Origin: an uncultured Clostridium sp.
GTDB taxonomy: Bacteria > Bacillota > Clostridia > TANB77 > CAG-508
Reading direction: 5' to 3'
Assembly: GCA_946497775.1 (NCBI GenBank)
Contig: CAMMLS010000002.1
Coordinates: 50,653 to 114,652 of the forward strand
Length of the DNA stretch: 64,000 bases
Every line of letters begins with the position of its first letter. Positions within the stretch are counted from its first letter, which is position 1. This document shows, piece after piece, positions 19,701-59,952 of the stretch. The notes beneath the pieces are model-generated. The model made no database searches and had not been told where the DNA came from. It saw only the letters and a program-made list of their open reading frames with translations. A program made the translations under genes and the position numbers.

Positions 19701-21291
19701 ATGAAAAACATAAAAGGATATGTAAGTTTTGTACTTCATGCCCATCTTCCATTTGTGTATCATCCAGAAAGCGAAGATTACCTAGAAGAACAATGGCTTT
19801 TTGAAGCAATTTCTGAAACTTACATACCATTATTATTAAATTTTAAAAAATTAGAAGAGGAGCATGTTGATTTTAGAATAACAATGTCACTTACTCCTCC
19901 CCTTCTTTCTATGCTTGATAATGAGCTTTTACAAAAAAGATATATCAAGTATTTAAAAACACATATAGAACTATGTGAAAAAGAAGTTGTAAGAACAGCA
20001 TATGATGAAAGATTAAATAAGCTTTCACATTACTATTTAGAAAGATATACAAACGATTTACATGTATTTAAAGATGTATATAACTGTAATTTAATAAATG
20101 GGTTTAAACATTTTCAAGACATTGGTGTACTTGAAATAATAACATGTGGTGCAACACATGGATACTTTCCTATTTTATATGTTAATGAAAACACAATACG
20201 TGCTCAAATAGCTGTTGGTGTGCAAACATATGAGAAATATTTTGGAAGACGTCCTCGAGGAATTTGGCTTCCTGAATGTGGTTATGTACCACAAGCGGAC
20301 AAGTATTTACGTGAATTTGGAATAGAATACATATTAACAGAATCACATGGAATTCTATATGCAGACCCTACCCCACTATATGGCACATTTGCTCCAATAG
20401 TATCACCTGGCGGAATTGTTGCATTTGGAAGAGACATAGAATCTTCTAAACAAGTATGGAGTTCTATAATTGGATACCCTGGTGATTTTAATTACAGAGA
20501 ATATTATAGAGACATTGGCTTTGAAGCAGATTATGATTATATAAAGCCATATATAGCTTCAAATGGTGTTCGTGTACATACAGGTATAAAATATTATCGT
20601 ATAACTTCTAAAAGCGATTTTAAAGATTATTATAACCCAAGATGGGCAATGGATACAGCAGAAAGACAAGCTCGGTCATTTCTTAGATTCAAGAGTTGCA
20701 CAAATAAATTATCTATCTGAACATATGCATGTTCCCCCACTTGTTGTATGTCCATACGATGCTGAACTATACGGACACTGGTGGTATGAAGGACCTTATT
20801 GGTTATACATATTATTTAAAAAGATTTATTATGATGAATGTAATTTTAAACTAATAACCCCTGGCGACTATATAGACATGTTCCCAGAAATACAAGTAGC
20901 ATCTCCATGTATTTCAAGCTGGGGTAGAAATGGATATAGTGAAGTTTGGTTAAATGGAGAAAACGACTATGCTCACAAACACTTGCACGTAGCCGGAGAC
21001 AGAATGGTAGAACTTGCACACCTATTCCCTAACGAAAAAGATGAGCTAAAAAGAAAAGCACTTAACCAATGTGCCCGCGAATTGCTACTTGCTCAAAGCA
21101 GTGACTGGCTATTTATAATAACAAACGGAACCATGGTAGATTATGCAAAACGTAGAATAAAAGATCATATAGGTAGATTTACTAAACTATATGAACAAAT
21201 AAAAAATGATAAACTAGACGAAAATTATTTAAGCATGATAATGGAAAAAGATAAGATTTTTCCAGATATTGATTATATGATATACTATTAA
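19701..21291 (+). CDS. GH57-family 1,4-alpha-glucan branching enzyme, split by a -1 frameshift near 20675-20685 (poly-T)
   Basis: ORF1 carries HAHLPFVYHPE...; ORF2 starts MHVPPLVVCPYDAELYGHWWYEG. The alternative frame reads continuously as ...HFLDSRVAQINYLSEHMHVPP. Confidence 0.8.
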
Positions 21292-21325
21292 AAGTTCTAT
21301 CTATATTTAGATAGAACTTTTTTCT
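21290..21325. terminator. bidirectional rho-independent terminator
   Basis: Stem AGTTCTATCTA/TAGATAGAACT followed by TTTTTT. Confidence 0.55.
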
Positions 21326-21336
21326 TAAATCTAATT

Positions 21337-21831
21337 TTATAAAATATCATCTAATAGCATTTGTGAATCACCTATGTAGAAGTTTCTATTTCCATTTAAA
21401 TTTTTACATTTTATTATTCTAAACGTATCATACTTATATATTAGTGATCCTCCATCTTGATACATATCTTTATAAGCAATTCCATTGCTTACATCTTCTT
21501 CTACCTTTTCTATTATTTTATCAATTGTTATTCTATTACTTCTTAATGCATCCTCAAAAGAATATGTTTCTTCTCCAATAACTATACTTACATCTCCATT
21601 ATATGTATATATATCATAGTCATATTGTTCCATTTCACTTCTATCTATTATTTTATTTAATTGCTTATCTCCTCTTTTAGTAAATTTAATCTCAAAACTT
21701 ATATCTTTACTTGTGTTAACTATATTATTTTTCTCGTTATTTGTTGTATTATTATTTAAATAATACGCAAGACCTACTGTTATTACTAAAACTATACAAA
21801 TAAGTGCTATTATTAAATATTTTTTGTTCAA
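21337..21831 (-). CDS. secreted/membrane-anchored hypothetical protein (probable TTG start)
   Basis: 164 aa with a strong RBS (GGAAGGGGG) and a 0A-box promoter module upstream. Confidence 0.5.
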   Translation of the reverse strand: MNKKYLIIALICIVLVITVGLAYYLNNNTTNNEKNNIVNTSKDISFEIKFTKRGDKQLNKIIDRSEMEQYDYDIYTYNGDVSIVIGEETYSFEDALRSNRITIDKIIEKVEEDVSNGIAYKDMYQDGGSLIYKYDTFRIIKCKNLNGNRNFYIGDSQMLLDDIL

Positions 21832-21859
21832 ATTTTTCCCCCTTCCTTCTTAGTTTTTC

Positions 21860-21960
21860 TTTGACATTCTATTGTTATTTTACTTCATCTAATTATAATA
21901 TTCGACATGTGAAAGTTTTTTCCTTATTTAATTATCACCAAAATATTTCTATTTACTATG
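21860..21960 (-). promoter_or_regulatory. promoter module copy 1 with a perfect Spo0A 0A box (TGTCGAA on the coding strand, 21901-21907) followed by TATAAT/TAAAAT
   Basis: The coding-strand read is ...cacaTGTCGAAtattataattagatgaagtaaaat.... Confidence 0.55.
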
Positions 21961-22060
21961 TTAATACTACGTCGTGAACAAGTTCTAGGATTTTGTTTTT
22001 TATTTCATCAAAACTTAAAACTTTTTGCAATATATTTATATTTATTTTTATGTCAATTTA

Positions 22061-22384
22061 TTAAACAAATGCTGAAATTATATTATTAATTGCAGATACT
22101 ATAAGTATAATATAATCTTTTATTTGTTCTACTATTCCCTTTTCTTCTTTTTCTTTTGGCATTACATATACACTTGCATCTATTCCTTGTGATTCGGTAT
22201 TTTCATTTGAAGTATTTGACTCTCCTGGCTCCCTTATTTCTTCTACTCTTTCTTGGCTAGAAGTTAAGGCAATTTCTCCCCCTGCAAGTTTTTCTTCTCC
22301 TGGTTTGAAAAATACCATTGCCACGAGTACTACAGCTACAATTACTAAAACTACTGCTATCCCTATTAGTACTTTTTTCTTCAT
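22061..22384 (-). CDS. truncated paralog (N-terminal signal anchor only) of the 267/270-aa secreted-protein family
   Basis: MKKKVLIGIAVVLVIVAVVLVAMVFFKPGEEKLAGGEIALTSS closely matches MQKKILVGVVIVAIVVIGLTAMAVLKTGGEEKLVGGATAPVSS of 23680..24483. Confidence 0.5.
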   Translation of the reverse strand: MKKKVLIGIAVVLVIVAVVLVAMVFFKPGEEKLAGGEIALTSSQERVEEIREPGESNTSNENTESQGIDASVYVMPKEKEEKGIVEQIKDYIILIVSAINNIISAFV

Positions 22385-22500
22385 GTATTTTCCCCTCCTT
22401 ATTTTATTCTTCTTACGTCTTTTAACTTCATCTAGTTATATTATTCGACATAGGATAACTTTTCCCTTATTGTTTTAGCAATTTTAATTCTTTATAGCAT
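22385..22500 (-). promoter_or_regulatory. promoter module copy 2 with a 0A box at 22445-22451
   Basis: Coding strand reads TGTCGAAtaatataactagatgaagttaaaaga, nearly identical to copy 3. Confidence 0.55.
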
Positions 22501-22505
22501 GATAG

Positions 22506-23246
22506 TTATATAAATATACTTGTTTCTTCTAATTTATATGATATCATTTGTATAATGTTTTTTATACTTGGCTTTTTTAATTCTTGAAATTTAAAATATC
22601 CTTTTAATCTCTCTGATTCACAATTATAATACATATTTTCTGTTGCCCTTGCAATATTACATTTTACATTATGTACAGTCGTGTTATTAATCAAAGCAAT
22701 ATAGGGGTATATTTCTTCTTTTAAATTATTAATCTGTTCTATTTTATTTTCACTTATATATTTTATTGTTTCTATTAAATATAAAGTTCCTTTGTGTGAA
22801 ATATTATATCCTAAATATAATATTTCTTCTTTAATCTTTCTTTCTAAATTCTCATCTAAGCGAATTTGTTCTTTTTCATGAACTAATTCTAAAATTTTAT
22901 TTGTAATTTCTTCAAAAGTAAGTACTTTCTGTAATACGGCATATATCATTTCATTTTTTCTTAATTTGTTTATATATTCAACTTCTCCACTAATTACTAT
23001 ACAAGATTTTTTATACTTTTCTCTTTTTTCTTCATTAATCATGTCTAATACTTCAATTCCATTATATTTAGGAATTTTTAAATCCAATAAAAATACATCA
23101 ATATCTTCTCTATTATTTAATAGTTCAATGGCTTCTTTCCCATTTATAGTAATATTAGTAACTTTTATTTCATTACCTTTATTAATATAATCCATTAGCT
23201 TTTTAGCATAGAATATATTATCTTCTATAATTAATACATTAATCAT
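22506..23246 (-). CDS. response regulator with a Spo0A-type C-terminal DNA-binding domain (Spo0A paralog; short linker)
   Basis: REC domain (IIEDN...FLLDLKIP). The C-terminal domain aligns along its length to the Spo0A_C domain (HIKGYLYL/SHKGTLYL; LYPDIAKKFNTT/IYPYIALINNTT; KPTNSEFIAMVADKL/KPSIKNIIQMISYKL). Recognition helix is TVHNVKCNIARA versus TASRVERAIRHA. Confidence 0.75.
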   Translation of the reverse strand: MINVLIIEDNIFYAKKLMDYINKGNEIKVTNITINGKEAIELLNNREDIDVFLLDLKIPKYNGIEVLDMINEEKREKYKKSCIVISGEVEYINKLRKNEMIYAVLQKVLTFEEITNKILELVHEKEQIRLDENLERKIKEEILYLGYNISHKGTLYLIETIKYISENKIEQINNLKEEIYPYIALINNTTVHNVKCNIARATENMYYNCESERLKGYFKFQELKKPSIKNIIQMISYKLEETSIFI

Positions 23247-23337
23247 TTCTTCCCCTTCTAGTAAATATTAATATATAACTTCTTTATTTATTATACCATA
23301 TATGGTTTGTTTCTTCAATTATTATCGATTAATAGCA

Positions 23338-23372
23338 AAAAAGACAGCAATTAAAAATGCTGTCTTTTTGCT
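23338..23372. terminator. bidirectional rho-independent terminator
   Basis: AAAAAGACAGCA-loop-TGCTGTCTTTTT. Confidence 0.6.
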
Positions 23373-23462
23373 ATTAATCCATTTTCTAATTATCATTTTT
23401 TATATTCACTTTGCAATATTGAATCTAATGTTTCCAATTCACCATTTTCATTATTTTTCACC

Positions 23463-23693
23463 TTAATTGTATTCATTAGATTGCAATGATTTTGTATTTG
23501 TATTTAGTATAGCTTGATTTGTGTTTTCAATATTTGTTTCAATTTCCCTTAATCCATATTTCAAATAAGCAATTGAGTATACTCCATAATCTTCATTGTA
23601 TTTTAGATACATCAAATATGTTTTTCCATCTTGTATTTCTATATCATCAGACATTGTTTCCTTTATATATATTGTTTTTTTAATTTGAAGCAT
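23463..23693 (-). pseudogene. C-terminal fragment of a secreted-protein family paralog
   Basis: 76 aa ...GKTYLMYLKYNEDYGVYSIAYLKYGLREIETN... is homologous to the C-terminal parts of the 267- and 270-aa paralogs. It overlaps the stop of the upstream gene. Confidence 0.4.
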
Positions 23694-24483
23694 TTGACTC
23701 TTCCTCTGCTACTTTTTTTATTTGTGATAATATTGAGCTAAGTGTTGTAACACTACCAGTTCTATTATCTTTTACTTTTATTTTAGAATTATCTTTTAAA
23801 TTTAGTCCCTTAGATGTATCTATTTCTCTTAGTCCATATTTCATAAACTCTATCTCATATCTTTCAAAATCTGTGTTATATTGTAGTAACATATAATAAG
23901 TTTTTCCTTGTTCTATTAAAATATCATCAATATCAAGTTTTAATATATATTCGTCGTCTTGTGGTATCTCTTTTAAAAATTGAATTTCATTAGAGAATGT
24001 AGATGTCCCTTTTTTATACTCCGAAAAAGGAAGGTATCCTCCTGATTTTATAAATGGTATAGCTTCTTCGTCTATTTCTCCCTTTAATACTTTTTCTACT
24101 TTTATTGTACCCACAGTTTTTACAGATGAATAGTTTCCAGTAGTTGGATTATAATTTGTTCCACCTTCAATATTTTGAACTGTTCCTATAATTATAAAAT
24201 CTGTCGCATTTCCTATTTCACCAGTATCTGCTATGTCAAAAATATAACTTACTTCTATGGGTGCTCGATTTTGTATTTTTTGAATTTCTTCTAGTAATCC
24301 TTCTGGTAATGGGAATATTTTTTCTTGTGACCTTATTTTTGCGATTTGTTCTGGGCTAGAAACTGGTGCAGTTGCTCCTCCCACGAGTTTTTCTTCTCCT
24401 CCTGTTTTTAAAACTGCCATTGCTGTTAGTCCTATAACCACAATCGCTACAATTACTACTCCTACTAGTATTTTTTTCTGCAT
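23680..24483 (-). CDS. secreted/membrane-anchored protein, paralog family member B
   Basis: 267 aa with an N-terminal anchor and conserved IIGTVQNIEGGTNYNPTTGNY...YGLREI. Confidence 0.6.
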   Translation of the reverse strand: MQKKILVGVVIVAIVVIGLTAMAVLKTGGEEKLVGGATAPVSSPEQIAKIRSQEKIFPLPEGLLEEIQKIQNRAPIEVSYIFDIADTGEIGNATDFIIIGTVQNIEGGTNYNPTTGNYSSVKTVGTIKVEKVLKGEIDEEAIPFIKSGGYLPFSEYKKGTSTFSNEIQFLKEIPQDDEYILKLDIDDILIEQGKTYYMLLQYNTDFERYEIEFMKYGLREIDTSKGLNLKDNSKIKVKDNRTGSVTTLSSILSQIKKVAEEESNASN

Positions 24484-24600
24484 ATTTTTCCCTCCTTATT
24501 CTATTTTATGTCTTTTAACTTCATCTATTTATATTATTCGACAAGTAATATTTTTTCCCTTATTTTTAGTTGTTTCAATTCCCCAAAAATATTTCATTTT
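24484..24600 (-). promoter_or_regulatory. promoter module copy 3 with a 0A box at 24537-24543
   Basis: Coding strand reads TGTCGAAtaatataaatagatgaagttaaaaga. Confidence 0.55.
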
Positions 24601-24720
24601 GTCCAATGCCTCACATAATGAAAATGAACCCTCCTTATTAACACTTTTTTGTCTAATAATTTGGGTTCACTTCATAATATATCAGTGCTTTTCAGGATGT
24701 TAATTAATTTTCTTTTAATT

Positions 24721-25533
24721 TTAGTTAGTGTTTTTTATAACAGATTTAGGAATAATTGAATCTAACGTTTCATATTCTCCATTGGTATTGTTTTTTACTC
24801 TAATAGTTGTATATGCCTCATTGTTCAATATTTTTAAGTTTGCATTAAGTAAATTTTGATTTGTACTTGTTAAACTTTCTTCAACTTCTCTTAGCCCATA
24901 CTGTAAATATTCAATTGAATACCTATCATAATAATCCGAATATGCTATATACATTAAATAAGTTTTATTCTCTTCAATTTCAATATCACCAGCCATTGTT
25001 TCTTTTACATATTTATTTTCTTTATCTTCTTGTGATAAATTATTTAGCCCCATTTTTTCTAGATGCGCTTGTGGTTGTGATTTTATATATTCTCCTAATG
25101 GTACTACACCACCTAATCTAATAAATGATATTTTATCTTCATTTAGATTTCCTTTTATTACCTTATTTACTTTTATTGTCCCAACCGTTCTAGCCATTAC
25201 ATAATTTTCTGTTGTAGGATTGTAATTTGTCATTCCTTCAATACTTTCAACAGTCCCAATAATTATCCACTCGGCATCATTTGCGATAGTTGTATTATCT
25301 GACATATCTGTCAAAAAACTTCCACTACTTTCTAAATTCATATAAATCTGTTCTTCATCTAAATTTTCATTTATTGGTATTATTCTCTCCTTTTCACGTA
25401 TATTACTATTTTTAGCAACTTGTGGCTGTTCTGTGTTTTCTTTATTATTGTTAATAAGAATACATGTAATCGTAATCACAAATATTACTACAATAATTGA
25501 AAATATTATTAATAACTTTTTTTTCATAATCAT
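24721..25533 (-). CDS. secreted/membrane-anchored protein, paralog family member A
   Basis: 270 aa, IIIGTVESIEGMTNYNPTTENY...YGLREV. Starts 10 bp after the metalloprotease gene, so probably co-transcribed with it. Confidence 0.6.
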   Translation of the reverse strand: MIMKKKLLIIFSIIVVIFVITITCILINNNKENTEQPQVAKNSNIREKERIIPINENLDEEQIYMNLESSGSFLTDMSDNTTIANDAEWIIIGTVESIEGMTNYNPTTENYVMARTVGTIKVNKVIKGNLNEDKISFIRLGGVVPLGEYIKSQPQAHLEKMGLNNLSQEDKENKYVKETMAGDIEIEENKTYLMYIAYSDYYDRYSIEYLQYGLREVEESLTSTNQNLLNANLKILNNEAYTTIRVKNNTNGEYETLDSIIPKSVIKNTN

Positions 25534-25542
25534 CCACTCCTT

Positions 25543-26658
25543 TTAATATTTATATATTAATGCTTGTCTATCAATTGTTTGTGGAGTAGTAGGTACTCCT
25601 GACCTATTTATAGTTGGATACATAAGGCTACTTTTACTTATATGATGTTGTAAACCGAATGCATGTCCTATTTCATGCGCAATGGTTCCATATCTTTGAT
25701 CCGTATTCACCTGATTAGTAACCAAATATGTATCTCTATTTATAGAAACTTTTGCAAAATTCCAGCCAGTATATTCTGGATAAAGAATATTATCATGACT
25801 TGGTGTATGACATGTGGTTGCTGCTAGCCAATTATTTCCAAGTTCAGTAATGTTATCAAAATAGTCATTACCCACCTCATAAAAATCTACTGCTGTTGAA
25901 GCATTAGTTGAAGCTTGACTTAATATTATTGTTGGATTCCATCTAGATGCTCCAGTAGATATATAGCTAGAATATTGCGAAGCTGTTGAATCTACATAGT
26001 ATGTTTGATATCCGATTCCCTTAGTCATTCTATAAGGATATGCAGGGGTAGAATCTTCCAGTGCTTCAAAACTCCATAATTGATTGGCTGAACCTGTCCA
26101 TGTTGATATAAATACATTTCCATTCGAGGTAGAAGAAGTTCCTGATCCTGAACCATTTCCAGTACCATATACTGTCAGAGCTAAGTTCGGATTAGATTTT
26201 AATCGTATAGCAAATGAATCTCTACTTATTAATTGAATTATAAAGAATTGACAGTCATCATCTCCTGTTCCCCATATATCTACATTATTCCCTGATACTA
26301 TTGAACCGCTAGCACTTCCTCCTGTTCTTAGTACATCTAATACTCTGTTGCCTCCTTTACTACTACACATTGGATAAATTCTATATGCATCTTCATTTCC
26401 AGACCTATTATAATATACTACTCTAAATCTTTGTTCTTGACTTCCATCTTTAGTCCATTGTATAACATTCGTTCCATTTGCATCAGTTCCTAAATTTACA
26501 TTTAGATACTTGCCACTTGCATTGTTTTTTATATTATATATCATCCCATTTGTGATTAGTAATGTTTCAGCTGCAAAAATAGACCTATTGCCTAATAACA
26601 TTAATGTAAATACTAAAAAAGTTAAAATAAATAAAATTTTTGTTGTAATTTTTTTCAT
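25543..26658 (-). CDS. secreted ricin-B-lectin domain plus matrixin-like (metzincin) zinc metalloprotease
   Basis: Signal peptide, N-terminal beta-trefoil-like region (QxW-like repeats), HEIGHAFGLQHH motif and an SLMYP Met-turn. Confidence 0.75.
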   Translation of the reverse strand: MKKITTKILFILTFLVFTLMLLGNRSIFAAETLLITNGMIYNIKNNASGKYLNVNLGTDANGTNVIQWTKDGSQEQRFRVVYYNRSGNEDAYRIYPMCSSKGGNRVLDVLRTGGSASGSIVSGNNVDIWGTGDDDCQFFIIQLISRDSFAIRLKSNPNLALTVYGTGNGSGSGTSSTSNGNVFISTWTGSANQLWSFEALEDSTPAYPYRMTKGIGYQTYYVDSTASQYSSYISTGASRWNPTIILSQASTNASTAVDFYEVGNDYFDNITELGNNWLAATTCHTPSHDNILYPEYTGWNFAKVSINRDTYLVTNQVNTDQRYGTIAHEIGHAFGLQHHISKSSLMYPTINRSGVPTTPQTIDRQALIYKY

Positions 26659-26859
26659 ATTTACCTCCTTTTTACCATACCTTTGATTTCCAATTACATT
26701 GATTGTATGGCTTTAAAAAAATAATGTTTTATAATATAAATATCCTCCTTTCCAATTTATTTTATGTCTCTCCCTATTAATCCTGCATAGATTATATATC
26801 AAAAATACTTTTTTTCTCAAAAAGATACAAAAAGATACTTTTTGTATGATGTATCTATT

Positions 26860-26960
26860 TCTCTTAACCCATATATTTATATTGTTCGACAAAAAATATT
26901 TTTTCCATTATTTTTAATTGTTTCAATTTTGCGGACATATTTCATTTTGATTTGTGTTTG
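26860..26960 (-). promoter_or_regulatory. promoter module copy 4 with a 0A box at 26885-26891 (about 230 bp upstream of the metalloprotease gene)
   Basis: Coding strand reads tTGTCGAAcaatataaatatatggg. The upstream part of the module is conserved with copies 1-3. Confidence 0.45.
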
Positions 26961-27032
26961 AATAATATAATGTATATCTAAGTGTGTTTTGGCAGATAAT
27001 AGTTGTAGATTTTTGGAAGGAGTTTTTAAGCC

Positions 27033-27896
27033 GTGATTAAGTCTTTTTGTATTAAAACAAATAATAAGAATATTTTAAATTATCTTGTAGGCAGTTTTAA
27101 GCGTAACACTCCTAGCAATTTTTATCTGTCTAAGCATAAGTTTAAAATTTATAATAATATTATTATTCATTATACTGGAAATGATGTTACTTTGTTTTAT
27201 AACTATATTTCTAGTCTTATTCAGCATGCTATTTTGAAGTTTTACGAAGATAAAATTTTGTATAATTTTATTAATTATGATTATTTTTATTTTACAGATA
27301 CCGAAAAAGATACAATTTTTGATATTTCAAAGCAATTACTAAAAGAAAATGAATCTATATATAATTCTAGATTAAATATATTGTATCATTTATGCCATGC
27401 TTATATTAAAAGCAATAAAAGCATGATATTAGATGGGTTCGTTAATTTTAGAATTAGGGAATATTCTATTATTTTAAACGAACTTGTTGTAGAGGCAGCT
27501 AGTACTTTTACTATAAAAAAGGAATACGATGAATTTATTGAACTATTAAAATCATATGTGAATACTGCTCCTCCAACAGCTAAAGAGGTACATTTAGTTT
27601 ATTTTAGTGATGATTCTTTATTGTTAGATGAAAATAAAAATATTATTAAAATAGATAGAAATATTTCAAGTGCTAAGTATTTATCCGATATAACTTTTTC
27701 TACTAATGATTATTGCTTAAATACTTTGCTAAATATTATTCCAAAAAGAATTTATATTCATTTATTAAATGATAATAAAAATAATGAATTTTTAGATACT
27801 CTATGTGCTATTTTCGGAAAAAGAATAATCATCTGCCTTGACTGCAATATTTGCAATTTTTACAAGGCAAATGATGTTTTCAAAAAGAATAATTAA
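27033..27896 (+). CDS. hypothetical protein (287 aa; C-terminal CxxC...C cluster)
   Basis: ORF diverging from the metalloprotease operon; no confident family assignment. Confidence 0.45.
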   Translation: MIKSFCIKTNNKNILNYLVGSFKRNTPSNFYLSKHKFKIYNNIIIHYTGNDVTLFYNYISSLIQHAILKFYEDKILYNFINYDYFYFTDTEKDTIFDISKQLLKENESIYNSRLNILYHLCHAYIKSNKSMILDGFVNFRIREYSIILNELVVEAASTFTIKKEYDEFIELLKSYVNTAPPTAKEVHLVYFSDDSLLLDENKNIIKIDRNISSAKYLSDITFSTNDYCLNTLLNIIPKRIYIHLLNDNKNNEFLDTLCAIFGKRIIICLDCNICNFYKANDVFKKNN

Positions 27897-54164: not shown

Positions 54165-55997
54165 CTATTTATTTTTCTTTGTATATTCTATTTCATATTT
54201 ATTTAATAACTCTTCAAATAATTCTATTGTAATCTTTCCCTGTTTTAAGGCTTCTTCTGCTGTTATCATATCTCCGTTTTTAAAATATAATTGCACATAT
54301 TTAGTTTTTTGATTTGGATAGTAATATTCATAATTTTCATCTTCATAAAATTTATATTCTCCATCTGCGATTCTGGATTTATCGAACTCTTCTAGCATGG
54401 TATAGTCTATTAATCTTGGTCCATCTGTTTCTTCTCTTTTTTCTAGTATATCGCTATTGTCTACTTTTAGAGCAAAATATGGATTTTCTGAATTTGCTTC
54501 TTGCATAAATAATATAAATGTATCTTGAAAAAAGCAATATCTTGGCTCGTTTGAAAATTCCAAATATTCAGTTACCATTGTGGATTTGCTAGATAGGTTG
54601 CAACCTTTTTCATTTAATGAAAAATTTACATTTTGTATTACTTCATAAATATAAAGTCCATTTGAATTTTTTATTTCTTTGCCATATAGTTCATTATAGC
54701 TAATCATTCCATTTATTTTTATGTATGGAACTCTTAACTCATCTTTTTCTGAAAAATTGGTATCTTCTTTATATGTATTTGATTTGTTTTTTATGTCTTG
54801 ATAATATTCGTCAAATGATTTTTTGTCATCTGTTCTATAAAGTATTATTTCGTCACCTTCTTTGGTGTTTAGTTTTATTGCAAAATCATTACTAAGCCAA
54901 GGGGTGTCTTGCATTCTATTATAGAAAAGTATTTCCACATTTTTATTCATCTTTTCTGGGCTAGCATTATTTATTCCAAAATATTTAATAAATTCGTCTC
55001 CATCTCCAAATTTCCATGCATAATCATCACTAAAATTATCAAATGATTCTAAGAAATGTAGTTCTTTATTTAGTGTAGCATCTATTTTGTATCCATTTGT
55101 AAGTGTCCTTTCTACATTTATATTATAATCTTCTGAGTCTAGCATTTCTTTTGTAAAGGTGCTTGAATTTAAGTCGTTTGCAATTTGTAAATTTTCGCCT
55201 CCTAATTCTATTTTATCTTTTCCTAGTTTTTCTTCTAAATCTTTCCATGCTAAATCTAATGTGCCAACCCATAAATTATTTATGGTGTTTTCATCTAGTG
55301 TGCTTTGATATGTCGGATTCATTGTTAAGGTGCTGAATTGTTTATAAATTTGTGTTACTGCATAAACTATTCCGCTTAAAGCAACAGTTGCAACTATTAG
55401 AATAATTACTACTTTTGATACTTTATTCATTCTATCAAATCCTTTCTTTAGCAGGATTTTTCTTAATTGCTTTTTCCCTCTATGTACAAGTGTTTTTGTA
55501 TTTTGGAGAGTTTGTCCTAATATTTTAGATGTTTCTTCATATGATAGTCCTTCAATATTTACTAAGTATATAGCATTTTTATATTTATCATCTAATTCTT
55601 CTATTGCAATTAGTAACTCTTTTTTAGTTTCTTCTCTTGTTATAATTTCTAGAATATCCTCGTCAGTTCTTTCATTGTCGTTTAAAATGTATTGTTCATT
55701 AATCTCGTTTCTTCTTTTTTCTACATTTATTTCATTGTAAGCTTTGCTTTTTGCAACTAGATATATGTAATATTTAAAAGAACTATTTTCACGTATTTTA
55801 TTCTTCATAATATATATAAAAGTTTCTTGTGTTAAGTCTTCTGCTTTTTCATAGTCTTTTACTATGTTAAAAATAAAATATTTAATTCTATTTTTATATT
55901 TGTTATAAAGATATTCAAAGGCTTGTTTTTCTCCGTTTAAATAATCATTATATAATTTTTTATCTAAATCTCTCTCCATTTTTCTACCTGCTTTCAT
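54165..55997 (-). CDS. ECF sigma factor fused in one polypeptide to a TM helix and a ~400-aa extracytoplasmic domain
   Basis: Sigma region 2 (…AEDLTQETFIYIMKN) and region 4 (LSYEETSKILGQTLQNTKTLVHRGKKQLRK), then a VVIILIVATVALSGIVYAV TM helix, then a large C-terminal domain. Confidence 0.65.
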   Translation of the reverse strand: MKAGRKMERDLDKKLYNDYLNGEKQAFEYLYNKYKNRIKYFIFNIVKDYEKAEDLTQETFIYIMKNKIRENSSFKYYIYLVAKSKAYNEINVEKRRNEINEQYILNDNERTDEDILEIITREETKKELLIAIEELDDKYKNAIYLVNIEGLSYEETSKILGQTLQNTKTLVHRGKKQLRKILLKKGFDRMNKVSKVVIILIVATVALSGIVYAVTQIYKQFSTLTMNPTYQSTLDENTINNLWVGTLDLAWKDLEEKLGKDKIELGGENLQIANDLNSSTFTKEMLDSEDYNINVERTLTNGYKIDATLNKELHFLESFDNFSDDYAWKFGDGDEFIKYFGINNASPEKMNKNVEILFYNRMQDTPWLSNDFAIKLNTKEGDEIILYRTDDKKSFDEYYQDIKNKSNTYKEDTNFSEKDELRVPYIKINGMISYNELYGKEIKNSNGLYIYEVIQNVNFSLNEKGCNLSSKSTMVTEYLEFSNEPRYCFFQDTFILFMQEANSENPYFALKVDNSDILEKREETDGPRLIDYTMLEEFDKSRIADGEYKFYEDENYEYYYPNQKTKYVQLYFKNGDMITAEEALKQGKITIELFEELLNKYEIEYTKKNK

Positions 55998-56033: not shown

Positions 56034-57128
56034 TTATATCTTATCTGGTAATTCTATATAAAATTCTATAAATTCGTTATCATTTTTAGCATATATTGTT
56101 CCACCATGTAATTCGATTATTTGTTTTGTAATTGCTAGTCCTAATCCTGAGCCTCCTGTGCTAGTGGTTCTTGATTCATCTGCTCTATAAAATTTATCGA
56201 ATATTTTTTCTAGTTTGTATTCTGGTATTTTGTCTCCTTTGTTTTTGAATATGATTTTTATTTTATTTTCATCTTCTTTTACTTCTATTTGTATATTTGT
56301 GCTTTCATAGCTGTAACTAATTGCATTTTTTAGTAAGTTTCCAAATGCTCTTGCAAGTTTGTCTCCATCTCCTAGAAATGGGATTGTTTTTGGTGTATTT
56401 AATAAACATTTTAAGTTTTTTTCTTGTAGCATTGGATAAGATTCTTCTATAAGTTGTTCTAATAGAAATACTAAATCTATATTTTGTTTTGTTATAGGCA
56501 TTGATTGTAGATTATATCTTGTTATATCAAAAAACTGATTTGTTAATTCTTCTACTCTTAATGCTTTTTTTAATGCTATGTTTATATATTTTTCTTGTAA
56601 ATCTTTTGGTATTTCTTTTTCGTCTGTAAGCAATGTTAAATATCCAATTATAGATGTAAGTGGTGTTTTTAAGTCGTGTGCCATATACATAATTAAATCA
56701 TTCTTTTTTTGCAGTGCTTCTTTTGCTTTGTTTTGGTTTGATATTAAATCTACTCTTATATTATTTAGTCTATTTTCTAAAATTACTAAATTATCTGATA
56801 GTTTTACTTGTTTTTCTGGATTTTTTAATATTTCGTCCATTGCAGATATTATTTCTACCATGTTATTATTAGAATTTCTTATAACTATATATGAAATAAT
56901 TACAAAAATAAATAAATATGTTAATCCTATTAATAATATTTTATTTGCTACACACCAATGATACAAGTTATAATTAAAATTTGCTATACTCTCTGCTAAT
57001 TCGTCATTGTATATGCCATCTATTAATATAGATACAATTATAGAGGCTATTACGCTATATATTATTATTTTAACAATTGCTTTAATTGCTAAACTACTTT
57101 TTAACTTTTCAAATTCTTCATTTTTCAA
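56034..57128 (-). CDS. sensor histidine kinase
   Basis: H-box HDLKTPLTSIIGY; G-boxes in the HATPase domain. Confidence 0.85.
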   Translation of the reverse strand: MKNEEFEKLKSSLAIKAIVKIIIYSVIASIIVSILIDGIYNDELAESIANFNYNLYHWCVANKILLIGLTYLFIFVIISYIVIRNSNNNMVEIISAMDEILKNPEKQVKLSDNLVILENRLNNIRVDLISNQNKAKEALQKKNDLIMYMAHDLKTPLTSIIGYLTLLTDEKEIPKDLQEKYINIALKKALRVEELTNQFFDITRYNLQSMPITKQNIDLVFLLEQLIEESYPMLQEKNLKCLLNTPKTIPFLGDGDKLARAFGNLLKNAISYSYESTNIQIEVKEDENKIKIIFKNKGDKIPEYKLEKIFDKFYRADESRTTSTGGSGLGLAITKQIIELHGGTIYAKNDNEFIEFYIELPDKI

Positions 57129-58914: not shown

Positions 58915-59889
58915 TTAGTTCATATAATTTATTTGTTGCTTTTCAATTAAATTATAAATAGATAATTCATTTTTACTTTTTTCTTTTTCTGTCATTTTTA
59001 TTGCTGTAATCTGGCTATTTGTATATGTTTTATAATAATATATTCCTTTACTTGTATTCATGCAACAAGAATACGTAGTAATATCGCTTTTATTTTCTTC
59101 GGTAATTGTTGAACCTTGAACCATTGTAACAGAATCTAATATATGAAAAAATTGGGTTACTGAGCTTTCTTCATCTTCTTTTGAACGTGAATTTAATTTA
59201 TTAAATGCTGCTCTTATAAATCTTGATGCTGACGAATTATCTCCTGGCAAACCTATTGCTCCCATCCCTTGGCAATATTGTAATAAATTAATTCTATTTG
59301 AAAATTTGCTTTTTTCATAATATGGAGACAAATTACTATAATTATTTATATTCATTAGATGATAGTAAAATGGTGGATTGTTTGTAAGAACCCCTATTGG
59401 ATTATCGTATATTTTTAGTCCGTCTTTCATTTGTTCTACTACTATGCATTGTTTTCCGTCGCTCATCATCCAATGAAGGTCTGTTATTGGTAGATTTTTT
59501 GCAAATGGTATGTTTGTAATATTTAAATTTTGAATAATTAGCTTTATTTCTTCTATGCTTGAATATAAGCCTAAAAAATATGGAATTAGTTCATAAGGTG
59601 CCAAATTTAGTTTTGAGTTATTCTCGTTAAAAAAGTATGCATTTTTAGGGAAATATAATCCTGCTATTGATAATCCTTTTTCATTTGTAGCTTCTGCATA
59701 TAAAGGATAATTGTTAATTACTGTTGCCATTCCTATTATAGAATATTTAGTATTGATTATATTTCCGTTTTTTAATTTAAACTCGTAATTTCTTGGTGTT
59801 ATTACAACTTTTTCATTAAATCTATATTCTAAATCAAGTGTTCTACCAAAATAATTATCTTTGGTTTTAAAATCTATACATGTACACAT
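58915..59889 (-). CDS. choloylglycine hydrolase / linear amide C-N hydrolase (Ntn hydrolase; bile-salt-hydrolase family)
   Basis: N-terminal MCTCIDFK (Cys2 nucleophile) plus family-typical motifs. Confidence 0.8.
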   Translation of the reverse strand: MCTCIDFKTKDNYFGRTLDLEYRFNEKVVITPRNYEFKLKNGNIINTKYSIIGMATVINNYPLYAEATNEKGLSIAGLYFPKNAYFFNENNSKLNLAPYELIPYFLGLYSSIEEIKLIIQNLNITNIPFAKNLPITDLHWMMSDGKQCIVVEQMKDGLKIYDNPIGVLTNNPPFYYHLMNINNYSNLSPYYEKSKFSNRINLLQYCQGMGAIGLPGDNSSASRFIRAAFNKLNSRSKEDEESSVTQFFHILDSVTMVQGSTITEENKSDITTYSCCMNTSKGIYYYKTYTNSQITAIKMTEKEKSKNELSIYNLIEKQQINYMN

Positions 59890-59952
59890 ATTAAATTTCC
59901 TTTCTTTTTTAGTTAAATACAGAAAAATACTAGTCATGTAAATTTAGTTAAA

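What the first reader, a model, noticed from the sequence alone, without database searches (positions are those of the whole stretch)
22506..23246. The Spo0A-like regulator has a rewired recognition helix
Aligned to the Bacillus Spo0A C-domain, the NTT turn and flanking helices are conserved. The base-contacting positions of the recognition helix are all replaced: B. subtilis TASRVERAIRHA (Glu213/Arg214/Arg217) becomes TVHNVKCNIARA here. The REC-to-C-domain linker is also much shorter than in Spo0A. This argues for a paralog with altered DNA specificity rather than the sporulation master regulator. Which protein reads the adjacent TGTCGAA boxes is therefore an open question.
Basis: partly seen in the sequence, partly recalled or inferred. 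Interest (0 to 1): 0.6.

Follow-up and report, generated by a model that had tools for sequence, protein, structure and literature searches.

The report
Spo0A-like regulator with its own operator
This gene encodes a stand-alone response regulator that keeps the fold of the sporulation master regulator Spo0A but has a different DNA-reading helix. It belongs to a large uncharacterised family in gut clostridia that appears to bind its own tandem repeat (GTATCTTTTT x2) in front of secreted-protein genes, not the Spo0A box.

Summary
ORF 22506-23246 (-) is a 246-aa REC + Spo0A_C protein. It aligns to B. subtilis Spo0A with TTVHNVKCNIARA opposite TTASRVERAIRHA, and its linker is 18-19 residues shorter.

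It is not a Spo0A orthologue: it scores 71.5 bits on TIGR02875 against a cut-off of 200. It belongs to a separate family of at least 543 clusters at 50% identity, with a conserved helix signature x-[H/N]-N-[I/V]-K-[C/S/N/T]-x-I. The modelled C-domain matches only Spo0A structures (TM 0.82-0.89).

New here: in 13 of 14 independent family loci, a period-10 tandem repeat lies beside the regulator or its cargo genes. It usually sits 22-23 nt upstream of a TATAAT. The window has one perfect site, 26819-26838 (-), ahead of a lectin-metalloprotease operon. The repeat core changes with the residue at the Spo0A-R214 position: Cys goes with GTATC, and Asn, Thr, Ser and Val go with other cores.

The four nearby TGTCGAA boxes sit inside AGG(G/A)AAA-N11-GTCGAAT promoters. 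These match mapped C. difficile sigma-H promoters, three of which, including spo0A's, use TGTCGAA as their -10. So the boxes are most simply read by sigma-H RNA polymerase, possibly also by the true Spo0A, and not by this paralogue.

DNA binding, the input kinase and the presence of a true spo0A in this organism remain untested.

The parts
22506..23246 (-). Gene for the 246-aa orphan response regulator (REC + Spo0A_C paralogue).
   Evidence: ORF. Pfam PF00072 and PF08769. TIGR02875 scores 71.5 against a cut-off of 200. 56 homologues of 37-94% identity by BLASTP, all about 240 aa with the same two domains.
22893..23237 (-). Receiver domain, residues 4-118. The phospho-acceptor is D55; E8/D9, S86 and K107 are also present.
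   Evidence: Pfam. D55 is invariant in A1/A2 and is Asp in 121 of 144 REC-bearing family members. Residue numbering.
22530..22835 (-). Spo0A_C-type DNA-binding domain, residues 138-239.
   Evidence: Pfam match over model positions 1-104 of 104. AF2 C-domain model with pLDDT 92.6. Foldseek hits only 1LQ1/1FC3, TM 0.82-0.89.
22641..22682 (-). Recognition helix TTVHNVKCNIARAT, residues 189-202.
   Evidence: Alignment to 1LQ1. Codons read from the sequence. Family column composition: N193 in 174/205, K195 in 188/205, I198 in 188/205, C196 in 115/205.
23290..23318 (-). The regulator's own sigma-A-type promoter: TTGAAG-N17-TATAAT with TG before the -10.
   Evidence: Consensus scan, 10 of 12 with TG. 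Sequence.
23338..23369 (-). Hairpin plus T-run (aaaaagacagca...tgctgtcttttt) between the 76-aa ORF and the regulator's promoter. It is a likely terminator that makes the regulator a separate transcription unit.
   Evidence: Read directly from the sequence. The scan did not report it, because the stem has too few G-C pairs.
26819..26838 (-). Candidate operator: the perfect tandem repeat GTATCTTTTT GTATCTTTTT, period 10. Its 3' end overlaps the -35-like TTGAGA.
   Evidence: The only perfect match in 64 kb; 0.12 matches expected at up to 3 mismatches. The same 20-mer or near-copies lie next to family regulators in L001, L004, L096, L098, L132, L164 and L006.
26791..26820 (-). Sigma-A-type promoter served by the repeat: TTGAGA-N18-TATAAT. 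A third, degenerate unit GTATTTTTGA lies at 26799-26808.
   Evidence: Best sigma-70-like match in 21300-27100, 11 of 12. The repeat-to-TATAAT spacing of 22-23 nt recurs in seven other sites.
25543..26658 (-). First gene of the putative target operon: a secreted ricin-type lectin + M10-like zinc metalloprotease (371 aa, HEIGHAFGLQH motif).
   Evidence: Pfam RicinB_lectin_2 (1.7e-16) and Peptidase_M10. Homologues lie beside the regulator in L001, L100 and L011.
24721..25533 (-). Second gene of the putative operon: a 270-aa membrane-anchored protein with no Pfam match ('family A').
   Evidence: ORF. No Pfam hit. Paralogues and orthologues in the window, L001, L004 and L098.
26882..26910 (-). Sigma-H-like promoter 4, a weaker match (TAATGGAAA-N11-GTCGAACAA), containing TGTCGAA box 26885-26891. 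It is distal to the repeat promoter.
   Evidence: Same register as the other three.
24534..24562 (-). Sigma-H-like promoter 3 (TAAGGGAAA-N11-GTCGAATAA), containing box 24537-24543. It precedes the 267-aa family-A gene 23680..24483.
   Evidence: PWM score 16.4, tied 7th-8th in the window.
22441..22469 (-). Sigma-H-like promoter 2 (TAAGGGAAA-N11-GTCGAATAA), containing box 22444-22450. It precedes the 107-aa remnant ORF 22061..22384.
   Evidence: PWM score 16.4.
21898..21926 (-). Sigma-H-like promoter 1 (TAAGGAAAA-N11-GTCGAATAT), containing box 21901-21907. It precedes the 164-aa family-C gene 21337..21831.
   Evidence: PWM score 18.0, rank 3 in the window. Family C is also next to the regulator in L004, L096 and L098.
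21337..24483 (-). The rest of the island's cargo around the regulator. It holds a 267-aa family-A gene (23680..24483), a 76-aa family-A fragment (23463..23693), a 107-aa deletion derivative (22061..22384) and a 164-aa family-C gene (21337..21831). All have N-terminal hydrophobic anchors.
   Evidence: Translations. No Pfam families. All-against-all BLASTP clustering.

Best explanation
The ORF encodes an orphan, phosphorylation-competent response regulator whose output domain has the Spo0A_C fold. It belongs to a large family that is separate from the sporulation master regulator.

Proposed mechanism:
- An unidentified kinase phosphorylates D55 (inferred).
- The protein dimerises and its two C-domains bind head-to-tail to a pair of 10-bp-spaced units, GTATCTTTTT GTATCTTTTT. 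This is the geometry Spo0A uses on tandem 0A boxes (inferred).
- The site abuts or overlaps a weak -35 and lies 22-23 nt upstream of a TATAAT. The bound dimer would therefore activate sigma-A RNA polymerase from a class-II position, as Spo0A does at spoIIG (inferred).
- In this window the single site at 26819-26838 controls a secreted lectin-metalloprotease plus a membrane-anchored protein.
- Specificity is set by the rewired helix, in particular the residue at the Spo0A-R214 position (Cys196 here).

The four TGTCGAA boxes are not its operator. They are the -10 elements (GTCGAAT) of sigma-H-type promoters, AGG(G/A)AAA-N11-GTCGAAT. These tie the other island genes to the transition-state network, and the true Spo0A could additionally bind them.

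Shown by computation: the architecture, the fold, the conserved catalytic residues, family-wide conservation of the altered helix, co-location of the repeat with the family, co-variation of repeat and helix, and the match of the box promoters to mapped sigma-H promoters.
For: - Architecture and fold.
- Not Spo0A: TIGR02875 scores 71.5 against 200. B. subtilis Spo0A scores 36.8 bits on the family profile, while members score above 109.
- Selection on the altered helix: N193, K195 and I198 are conserved in at least 85% of 205 sequences. The same columns are nearly invariant in A1/A2.
- Receiver competence: D55 is invariant in A2, and D9, S86 and K107 are nearly so.
- Operator, uniqueness: there is one perfect 20-mer in the window, at the head of the island.
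- Operator, association: a rule-based scan for a period-10 T-tract repeat followed 18-26 nt later by a TATAAT-like hexamer found 12 sites within 4 kb of the regulator in 14 independent loci (110 kb). It found 2 sites in 89 kb of more distant sequence, and one of those is the L001 island promoter. Seven loci have the site within 80 bp of the regulator gene.
- Operator, shared gene: the regulator is the only gene shared by all these loci.
- Operator, reverse search: of 107 loci fetched by the bare 20-mer, two carry a family regulator, each within about 100 bp of the repeat.
- Core conservation: GTATC is kept across regulators of 43-94% identity, while the spacer to the -10 is not conserved.
- Co-variation: all 9 loci with K-C that have a repeat show GTATC-type cores. 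K-N goes with GTGRC, K-T with TTATC, K-S with TGAAC and K-V with TTTAC.
- Promoter context: TTGAGA-18-TATAAT is the best sigma-70-like site in the island.
- Sigma-H reading of the boxes: AGGNAAA-N11-GTCGAAT occurs 3 times against 0.00 in shuffles. Mapped C. difficile SigH promoters of spo0A, ssuA and lplA use TGTCGAA as their -10 (PMC7438776). A PWM built from 28 of those promoters ranks three island promoters 3rd, 7th and 8th in the window, within the training score range.
- The boxes do not travel with the family: they are absent from L096, L098, L100 and more distant loci.
Against: - There is no binding, transcription-start or expression data.
- Co-variation rests on one locus per non-Cys variant, and the unit table was assembled by eye from printed intergenic sequences.
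- One Cys-type locus (L011) has no obvious repeat.
- The 20-mer is not exclusive to the family. 105 of 107 loci recovered by the reverse search have no family regulator in the stored stretch, and many are unrelated minisatellites.
- Phased T-tracts can stimulate promoters without any factor.
- L210 carries three different period-10 repeat promoters within 5 kb, so such repeats may be a more general promoter style in these genomes.
- In the window the -35 (TTGAGA) is already good, so the bound protein could repress rather than activate.
- TGTC is invariant in all 7 box promoters, which exceeds what a sigma-H -10 needs. A second reader of the boxes is therefore not excluded.
- sigH and the true spo0A were not seen, because they lie outside the window.
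Confidence: 0.6

Rival explanations
1. The tandem GTATCTTTTT repeats are not the paralogue's operator. They would be factor-independent phased T-tracts (curved DNA or UP-like elements), or the site of some other protein. The paralogue's true target sequence would remain unknown.
For: The unit is half T-tract with exact helical phasing. The 20-mer occurs in many unrelated contexts. L210 shows three different repeat types close together. L011 lacks a clear repeat.
Against: The non-T core GTATC is conserved across loci whose flanking DNA cannot be aligned, which bending alone does not require. The core changes where the recognition helix changes. Sites are strongly concentrated next to the regulator, 12 near against 2 far. 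The regulator is the only gene common to the loci.
Confidence: 0.2
2. The paralogue still reads the TGTCGAA boxes, or an extended version of them. It would directly control the four box-bearing promoters around its own gene.
For: Four perfect boxes cluster within 5 kb around the gene, all in the same orientation upstream of genes. TGTC is invariant in 7 of 7 copies although the spacers have diverged. L004, whose regulator is 61% identical, also has TGTCGAA upstream of the regulator gene.
Against: All three positions equivalent to the Spo0A base-contact residues are replaced. Loci with the same helix (L096, L098) have no TGTCGAA nearby, yet they have the GTATC repeat. The boxes sit in the exact register of a sigma-H -10, paired with an AGGAAAA -35 at 11 nt. 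The same arrangement is experimentally sigma-H-dependent in C. difficile.
Confidence: 0.1
3. The protein is this organism's actual, highly divergent Spo0A, the sporulation master regulator.
For: It has the same two-domain architecture, and Spo0A_C is usually treated as diagnostic of Spo0A (PMC6136694). The best NCBIfam hit is spore_0_A. No other spo0A lies in the window.
Against: The score is 71.5 bits against a cut-off of 200. The recognition helix, invariant in true Spo0A from Bacillus to Clostridium, is replaced. The family forms its own high-scoring cluster, with stand-alone and four-domain variants. The gene sits in a variable island and, in L011, on a conjugative element. Some loci carry two family genes. 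Spo0A paralogues are already recorded in Clostridiales.
Confidence: 0.03
4. DNA binding is secondary. The receiver would mainly act as a phosphate sink or decoy that competes with Spo0A for orphan sporulation kinases.
For: It is an orphan regulator with an intact acceptor pocket. Spo0A receiver structures are among the best PDB matches to the N-domain.
Against: The C-domain, and especially the exposed face of the recognition helix, is among the most conserved parts of the family. 25 of 204 members are stand-alone C-domains with no receiver. NtrC1 matches the receiver at least as well as Spo0A does.
Confidence: 0.05

Closest known systems
Spo0A, the sporulation master response regulator (B. subtilis P06534; structures 1LQ1 and 1FC3; TIGR02875)
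   Same: REC + Spo0A_C architecture. The C-domain has the same helical fold (TM 0.82-0.89, rmsd 2.0 A, about 30% identity). The NTT turn and helix core positions are conserved, as is the acceptor Asp pocket. The predicted binding site is a pair of units with 10-bp period next to the -35, the same geometry as tandem 0A boxes (7 + 3 bp). The repeat-to-TATAAT spacing of 22-23 nt recalls the 22-bp -35/-10 spacing of the Spo0A-activated spoIIG promoter (from general knowledge).
   Different: It fails the equivalog cut-off (71.5 against 200). The helix reads HNVKCNIAR instead of SRVERAIRH. The linker is 18-19 residues shorter and is modelled as one continuous helix (H110-143). It lies in a variable island with secreted-protein cargo, not with sporulation genes. 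The candidate operator is TGTATCTTTT, not TGTCGAA.
'spo0A paralogues' counted in Clostridiales genomes (Galperin et al. 2022, bioRxiv 10.1101/2022.02.25.481979)
   Same: Extra COG5801/Spo0A_C genes besides spo0A occur in clostridial genomes: 10 genomes have two, and Anaerostipes hadrus has three.
   Different: That work only counts them. No function, operator or helix analysis was found in the searched literature. Whether those paralogues belong to this exact family was not checked.
Truncated spo0A homologues of human-gut phages (Schwartz et al. 2023, PMC10294663)
   Same: Stand-alone Spo0A_C domains without a receiver. 25 of 204 sequences in this family have that form.
   Different: No member of this family was found in IMG/VR by pattern and tblastn. 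The phage collection gave only hits of 23-27% identity. The window gene has a full receiver and is chromosomal.
Sigma-H (Spo0H) dependent promoters of C. difficile (Soutourina et al. 2020, PMC7438776) - closest match for the TGTCGAA boxes
   Same: -35 AGGAWWW, an 11-12 nt spacer, and -10 RNNGAATWW. The spo0A, ssuA and lplA promoters use TGTCGAA(T) as their -10. Those same three are bound by the Spo0A DNA-binding domain in vitro (PMC3485338).
   Different: Two of the four promoters here have AGGG instead of AGGA, and one has ATGG and GAAC. No transcription-start or sigH-mutant data exist for this organism.

Membership tests
Spo0A orthologue (NCBIfam TIGR02875 spore_0_A, equivalog) | Whole-protein score at or above the curated cut-off of 200 bits. 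| tested here: not met
   71.5 bits over residues 2-240.
Spo0A orthologue (NCBIfam TIGR02875 spore_0_A, equivalog) | Conserved recognition helix TASRVERAIRHAIEVAW, with the residues taken to contact bases (E213, R214, R217). | tested here: not met
   The aligned positions are K195, C196 and A199. True Spo0A proteins keep these residues from Bacillus to C. difficile.
Spo0A orthologue (NCBIfam TIGR02875 spore_0_A, equivalog) | REC + Spo0A_C two-domain architecture. | tested here: met
   PF00072 and PF08769.
Spo0A orthologue (NCBIfam TIGR02875 spore_0_A, equivalog) | Long, poorly conserved hinge between the domains. | tested here: not met
   The linker is 18-19 residues shorter. It is modelled as one helix spanning residues 110-143.
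Spo0A orthologue (NCBIfam TIGR02875 spore_0_A, equivalog) | Binds 0A boxes (TGTCGAA) and is required for sporulation. | not testable with these tools
   This needs EMSA or genetics.
Pfam Spo0A_C (PF08769) domain superfamily | HMM score above the gathering threshold over the whole model. | tested here: met
   37.4 bits against 25, model positions 1-104 of 104.
Pfam Spo0A_C (PF08769) domain superfamily | All-helical fold with the HTH of the Spo0A effector domain. | tested here: met
   C-domain model with pLDDT 92.6. Its only significant PDB matches are 1LQ1 and 1FC3, TM 0.78-0.89.
Phosphorylatable receiver domain (PF00072) | Acidic pair, acceptor Asp, Ser/Thr and Lys of the active site. | tested here: met
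   E8/D9, D55, S86 and K107 are present and conserved in the family.
Classical two-component pair | Cognate histidine kinase gene adjacent to the regulator. | tested here: not met
   No HK lies within 16-34 kb of the window or next to the regulator in any related locus. The only HK in the window (56034..57128) is paired with an OmpR-type regulator.
Sigma-H-dependent promoter (for the TGTCGAA boxes) | -35 AGGAWWW and -10 RNNGAATWW separated by 11-12 nt. | tested here: met
   Three promoters fit AGGNAAA-N11-GTCGAAT, against 0.00 expected in shuffles. The fourth fits with two substitutions. PWM scores of 16.4-18.0 fall within the 11.9-22.8 range of 28 mapped C. difficile promoters.
Sigma-H-dependent promoter (for the TGTCGAA boxes) | Transcription start downstream of the -10, and dependence on sigH. 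| not testable with these tools
   No transcriptome is available, and sigH is not in the window.
Spo0A binding site (0A box) | 7 of 7 match to TGTCGAA upstream of a gene, more often than chance. | tested here: inconclusive
   There are perfect matches at four promoters. The window count is 5 against 1.82 expected, which 4 of 100 shuffles reached. The copies are paralogous, so they are not independent.

The most novel reading that the evidence does not exclude
The Spo0A effector fold has radiated in gut clostridia, so it is not a one-protein domain. The result is a large family of at least 500 clusters at 50% identity. It includes REC-linked, stand-alone and four-domain forms whose members each read their own 10-bp-phased tandem repeat. 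One helix position, the equivalent of Spo0A R214, acts as the main specificity switch: Cys goes with GTATC, Asn with GTGRC, Thr with TTATC, Ser with TGAAC and Val with TTTAC. These regulators would switch on mobile or variable cassettes of secreted lectin-proteases and surface proteins. The cassettes are also wired to the sigma-H/Spo0A transition-state network.
Probability: 0.4. Interest if true: 0.72.

Novelty: new variant of a known kind. Interest (0 to 1): 0.6.

Why it matters
- Annotation: Spo0A_C is widely used as a marker that 'uniquely distinguishes Spo0A' (PMC6136694). Its presence is used to infer sporulation potential in genomes and metagenomes. A large family of non-Spo0A proteins with this domain means such calls can be wrong or double-counted.
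- DNA recognition: the family gives a natural series of specificity variants on a solved protein-DNA scaffold (1LQ1). With predicted operator/helix pairs, it becomes a directly testable model for how a master-regulator fold is re-targeted.
- Biology: the predicted regulon is made of secreted lectin-metalloproteases, amidases, trypsin-like proteins and unknown surface proteins in uncultured human-gut clostridia. This points to a signal-controlled cell-surface or host/glycan-interaction module.
- Scanning caution: a perfect TGTCGAA in a clostridial promoter can simply be a sigma-H -10 element. This matters for in-silico Spo0A regulon predictions.

Tried and rejected
- The genome-contig scan with the full-length alignment was wasted.
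- The IMG/VR scan with the C-domain alignment found nothing. tblastn against plasmids and phages gave only hits of 23-27% identity.
- The reverse search of the exact 20-mer in JGI metagenomes and IMG/VR returned 107 loci. Only 2 carry a family regulator. Most of the rest are unrelated minisatellites or sequences of other GC content, so the bare 20-mer is not a usable family marker.
- Rfam and tRNA scans of the window were empty, so no known RNA element explains the conserved leaders.
- I considered an ECF-type reading of the box promoters (GGAAA ... CGAA) and rejected it. The spacing is about 13 nt, where ECF promoters typically have 16-17 (typical value from general knowledge).
- A sigma-I-type reading (-10 CGAA) was also rejected, because the C-rich -35 is missing (from general knowledge).
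- A relaxed sigma-H regular expression was too permissive to be informative in the distant loci.
- The full-length fold search was dominated by receiver domains and said nothing about the C-domain, so I modelled the C-domain separately.
- Literature searches found no functional study of non-Spo0A Spo0A_C regulators and no mention of the repeat.
- I could not confirm in the held papers which Spo0A residues contact which bases.
Full report
**1. What is at the coordinates**

The interval 22506..23246 on the minus strand is exactly one ORF of 246 aa. Pfam finds a receiver domain (residues 4-118, 45.6 bits) and a complete Spo0A_C domain (residues 138-239, model 1-104 of 104, 37.4 bits against a gathering score of 25). 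It finds no other DNA-binding family.

NCBIfam's best model is the Spo0A equivalog TIGR02875, but at 71.5 bits against a cut-off of 200. phmmer against PDB aligns the C-terminal half to the B. subtilis Spo0A effector domain bound to DNA (1LQ1, E 5.7e-5). That alignment puts NTTVHNVKCNIARA opposite NTTASRVERAIRHA.

With full-protein numbering this gives E213->K195, R214->C196, R217->A199, S210->H192 and R211->N193. The turn and the buried helix positions are kept. The inter-domain linker is 18-19 residues shorter.

The one thing I could not verify here is which Spo0A residues touch bases. The held literature only states that Spo0A makes specific contacts to G2, C4 and G5 of TGTCGAA (PMC3485338).

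**2. Fold and chemistry**

An AlphaFold2 model of the whole protein, built on 48 homologues, has mean pLDDT 91.7. It shows receiver helix alpha-5 running on as one long helix (residues 110-143) into the C-domain.

A separate C-domain model has pLDDT 92.6 and pTM 0.86. It matches only the Spo0A effector domain in the PDB (1LQ1 and 1FC3: TM 0.78-0.89, rmsd about 2.0 A, about 30% identity). The next hit has E about 1. So no other HTH family competes.

The receiver keeps the acidic pair (E8/D9), the acceptor D55, S86 and K107. D55 is invariant in the 48-sequence alignment and is Asp in 121 of 144 receiver-bearing relatives. The protein should therefore be controlled by phosphorylation.

No histidine kinase gene lies next to it in the window or in any related locus. 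It is an orphan regulator.

**3. It belongs to a distinct, large family**

A word-indexed search found 56 relatives of 37-94% identity. Nearly all are about 240 aa with the same two domains, come from gut metagenome assemblies, and are named at most 'response regulator [Clostridia bacterium]'.

A profile of the C-domain, searched against 1.84 billion cluster representatives, found 2334 proteins at E <= 1e-3, 543 at E <= 1e-10 and 58 at E <= 1e-30. The best 150 all score above 109 bits. B. subtilis Spo0A scores 36.8 bits on the same profile. The family is thus well separated from true Spo0A.

Among the 204 relatives retrieved in these two searches:
- 144 are REC + C-domain.
- 25 are stand-alone C-domains.
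- 31 have another or a shortened N-terminus.
- 2 carry four C-domains in tandem.

The 'rewired' helix is a family signature and not decay: x-[H/N]-N-[I/V]-K-[C/S/N/T]-[N/R/S]-I-x-[R/N/K]-A-T. Counted over those 204 relatives plus the window protein, Asn (Spo0A R211) occurs in 174 of 205, Lys (E213) in 188 of 205 and Ile (I216) in 188 of 205.

The literature records extra 'spo0A paralogues' in Clostridiales genomes but does not characterise them (10.1101/2022.02.25.481979). Another study uses the Spo0A_C domain as uniquely diagnostic of Spo0A (PMC6136694). Gut phages carry receiver-less spo0A homologues (PMC10294663). I found no member of this family in IMG/VR. The phage and plasmid collections gave only hits of 23-27% identity.

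**4. Genomic setting**

The window is chromosomal. It carries polC, a glycogen gene cluster, ytxC, rplS-trmD-rimM-ffh and a bile-salt hydrolase.

The regulator sits in a 5.5-kb island between the GH57 gene and ytxC. In transcription order on the minus strand, the island holds:
- a secreted ricin-lectin/M10-type metalloprotease (371 aa),
- a 270-aa and a 267-aa membrane-anchored protein with no Pfam match ('family A'),
- a 76-aa family-A fragment,
- the regulator,
- a 107-aa deletion derivative of a family-A gene,
- a 164-aa anchored protein ('family C').

The same protein sequence occurs on nine metagenome contigs with the same neighbours. Relatives of 60-79% identity occupy the same chromosomal neighbourhood (ytxC side) but with shuffled cargo. 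That cargo includes lectin-M10 protease, lectin-amidase, a trypsin-like protein, and families A, C, D and E. One relative lies on a conjugative element (L011).

Related contigs carry gpr, yabP and yqfD. These organisms are therefore probably spore formers, which by the cited survey always have a true spo0A. For this organism that remains an inference.

**5. The TGTCGAA boxes**

All four boxes near the gene lie on the coding strand, 54-70 nt before a start codon for three of them and 227 nt for the fourth. Each is embedded in a conserved bipartite element, A(G/T)G(G/A)AAA - 11 nt - GTCGAA(T/C).

The two blocks are conserved while the 11-nt spacer has diverged. The syntenic locus L001 has three more copies with AGGAAAA or AGGTAAA at the same spacing. 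The strict form AGGNAAA-N11-GTCGAAT occurs three times in the window, against 0.00 in 100 shuffles.

This is the sigma-H promoter architecture. In the experimentally mapped C. difficile SigH regulon the promoters read AGGAwww-N11-12-(G/A)nnGAAT. Three of them (spo0A, ssuA, lplA) have TGTCGAA as their -10 (PMC7438776 Table 3). Those are the very three promoters shown to bind the Spo0A DNA-binding domain through a 'perfect 0A box' (PMC3485338).

A weight matrix built only from 28 of those C. difficile promoters ranks three island promoters 3rd, 7th and 8th among all positions of the window. Their scores are 18.0, 16.4 and 16.4, and the training range is 11.9-22.8.

The boxes do not travel with the regulator family. 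Loci with the same recognition helix (L096, L098) have none.

I conclude that the boxes are most simply the -10 elements of sigma-H-type promoters. TGTC is invariant in 7 of 7 copies, which exceeds what sigma-H needs. This leaves room for the true Spo0A as a second reader.

In L004 a different arrangement precedes both the regulator gene and a family-A gene. There, TGTAGAATAATGTCGAA (two 0A-like boxes with 10-bp period) lies 9 nt upstream of TTGCAA-N17-TATGAT. This again suggests a link to the Spo0A network.

**6. What the paralogue more likely reads**

I printed the intergenic regions of all loci side by side. A different element appeared: a tandem direct repeat of period 10, GTATCTTTTT GTATCTTTTT, followed 22-23 nt later by TATAAT. 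It occurs in these places:
- before the lectin-protease gene in the window and in L001,
- before a family-A gene in L001,
- before the first cargo gene in L004, L096 and L098,
- divergently from the regulator gene in L006,
- also in L132 and L164, the two loci recovered independently by searching metagenomes for the 20-mer.

In the window there is exactly one perfect copy, at 26819-26838 (-), with 0.12 matches expected at up to 3 mismatches. Its last two T's begin TTGAGA-N18-TATAAT, the best sigma-70-like site in the island.

A rule-based scan looked for a period-10 repeat with at least 9 of 10 identity containing a T-tract, then 18-26 nt, then a TATAAT-like hexamer. It finds 12 sites within 4 kb of the regulator in 14 independent loci (110 kb). 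It finds 2 sites in the remaining 89 kb, one of which is the L001 island promoter. Seven loci have the site within 80 bp of the regulator gene. The regulator is the only gene common to all these loci.

The -35 hexamers next to the repeat are mostly poor, with 3-4 of 6 matches. That fits an activator-dependent promoter. In the window the -35 is good (5 of 6), so repression cannot be excluded there.

**7. Co-variation**

Nine of the ten loci whose regulator has Lys-Cys at the Spo0A E213-R214 positions have GTATC-type cores; the tenth, L011, has no obvious repeat. This holds although the regulators are only 43-94% identical and the surrounding DNA cannot be aligned. The four loci with another residue there have another core:

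| Helix pair | Locus | Repeat core |
|---|---|---|
| Lys-Cys | nine loci | GTATC-type |
| Lys-Asn | L100 | TGTC / GTGGC / GTGAC |
| Lys-Thr | L008 | TTATC |
| Lys-Ser | L009 | TGAAC |
| Lys-Val | L208 | TTTAC |

In every case the core is followed by the T-tract and keeps the 10-bp period (assembled).

The argument has weaknesses:
- There is one locus per variant.
- The units were read by eye.
- L011 has no obvious repeat.
- L210 has three different repeat promoters within 5 kb. That could mean several paralogues per genome, or a more general promoter style.
- The bare 20-mer also occurs in 105 unrelated loci, many of them minisatellites.

**8. Mechanism proposed**

An unidentified kinase phosphorylates D55. 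The regulator dimerises, and two C-domains bind head-to-tail on the two 10-bp-spaced units. That is the geometry of Spo0A on tandem 0A boxes (7 + 3 bp), as recalled from 1LQ1 and the abrB site. From a position overlapping the -35 it activates sigma-A polymerase, as Spo0A does at spoIIG (general knowledge).

The output is a set of secreted or surface proteins. The regulator itself is made from its own TTGAAG-N17-TGn-TATAAT promoter, downstream of a hairpin terminator. The other island genes are driven by sigma-H-type promoters. The whole cassette would therefore come on at the transition to stationary phase, with the lectin-protease operon additionally gated by the regulator's signal.

- Shown by computation: the architecture, fold, conserved residues, family signature, co-location, co-variation and promoter matches.
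- Inferred: phosphorylation, dimer binding, activation, and the identity of the regulon.

**9. Verdict**

The finding is a new variant of a known kind. It is a response regulator with a known output fold, in an uncharacterised and unexpectedly large family, with a concrete and testable operator prediction.

Noticed in passing
window 19701-21291 (+); also L001, L003, L093: The GH57 glucan-branching enzyme gene is split into a 339-aa ORF (GH57 domain) and a 188-aa ORF (BE_C domain), separated by 4 nt. The same split appears in three related metagenome contigs, so it is not a private assembly error. It could be a real split gene or recoding.
   Followed up: partly
window 22061-22384 (-) and 23463-23693 (-): The 107-aa ORF is the N-terminal 51 aa joined to the C-terminal 53 aa of the 310-aa family-A protein seen in L001. 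The 76-aa ORF is a C-terminal fragment of a family-A gene. The island therefore holds decaying paralogues, and the 107-aa remnant keeps an intact sigma-H-type promoter.
   Followed up: partly
window 54165-55997 (-); L009 6858-8663; L208 3379-5016: A 610-aa protein has Sigma70_r2 and r4_2 at its N-terminus and a long unknown extension. Similar 601-aa and 545-aa sigma-fusion proteins lie directly beside, or overlap, regulator paralogues in two distant loci. ECF-type sigma genes are also near the regulator in L006 and L008.
   Followed up: no
L004 5870-5900 and 9040-9070: TGTAGAATAATGTCGAA, two 0A-like boxes with 10-bp period as at abrB, lies 9 nt upstream of TTGCAA-N17-TATGAT. It occurs once before the regulator gene and once before a family-A gene, so the true Spo0A may control the paralogue in that lineage.
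   Followed up: partly
L100 6497-6565; L208 6416-6480; L008 5929-5949 and 6741-6770: The tandem repeats occur as inverted pairs between divergent genes, or right after the regulator's stop codon. They could serve two promoters, or form long hairpins.
   Followed up: no
proteins P0138, P0164, and about 25 short proteins such as P0058 and P0079: The family includes proteins with four Spo0A_C-like domains in tandem (439-454 aa) and stand-alone C-domains of about 115-130 aa. L208 and L009 each carry a second family gene near the regulator.
   Followed up: partly
L210 218-237, 3745-3766, 4872-4902: Three different period-10 tandem-repeat promoters lie within 5 kb: TGCAACTTTT/TGCTACTTTT, TGTGACTTTT x2 and TGTATnTTTT x3. 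The last is upstream of the regulator gene itself. This suggests several paralogue/operator pairs per genome, plus autoregulation.
   Followed up: no
window 47775-47812 (+): A fifth TGTCGAA has a TGTCGTA about 30 nt upstream of it. Both lie in the intergenic region between two minus-strand genes (a sulfatase-like gene, 45790..47751, and a 436-aa gene with no Pfam match), on the opposite strand to those genes.
   Followed up: no
window 26660-26790 (-) and the equivalent leaders in L001, L004, L098, L100: Transcripts from the repeat promoters would have long leaders with a conserved AAGGAGG about 50 nt after the -10 and 70-100 nt before the real ribosome-binding site. This could be a small upstream ORF or a leader element. 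Rfam finds nothing there.
   Followed up: no
window 58915-59937 (-): A choloylglycine (bile-salt) hydrolase family gene. Together with the human-gut sample sources of the related contigs, it points to a gut clostridial origin for the window.
   Followed up: no
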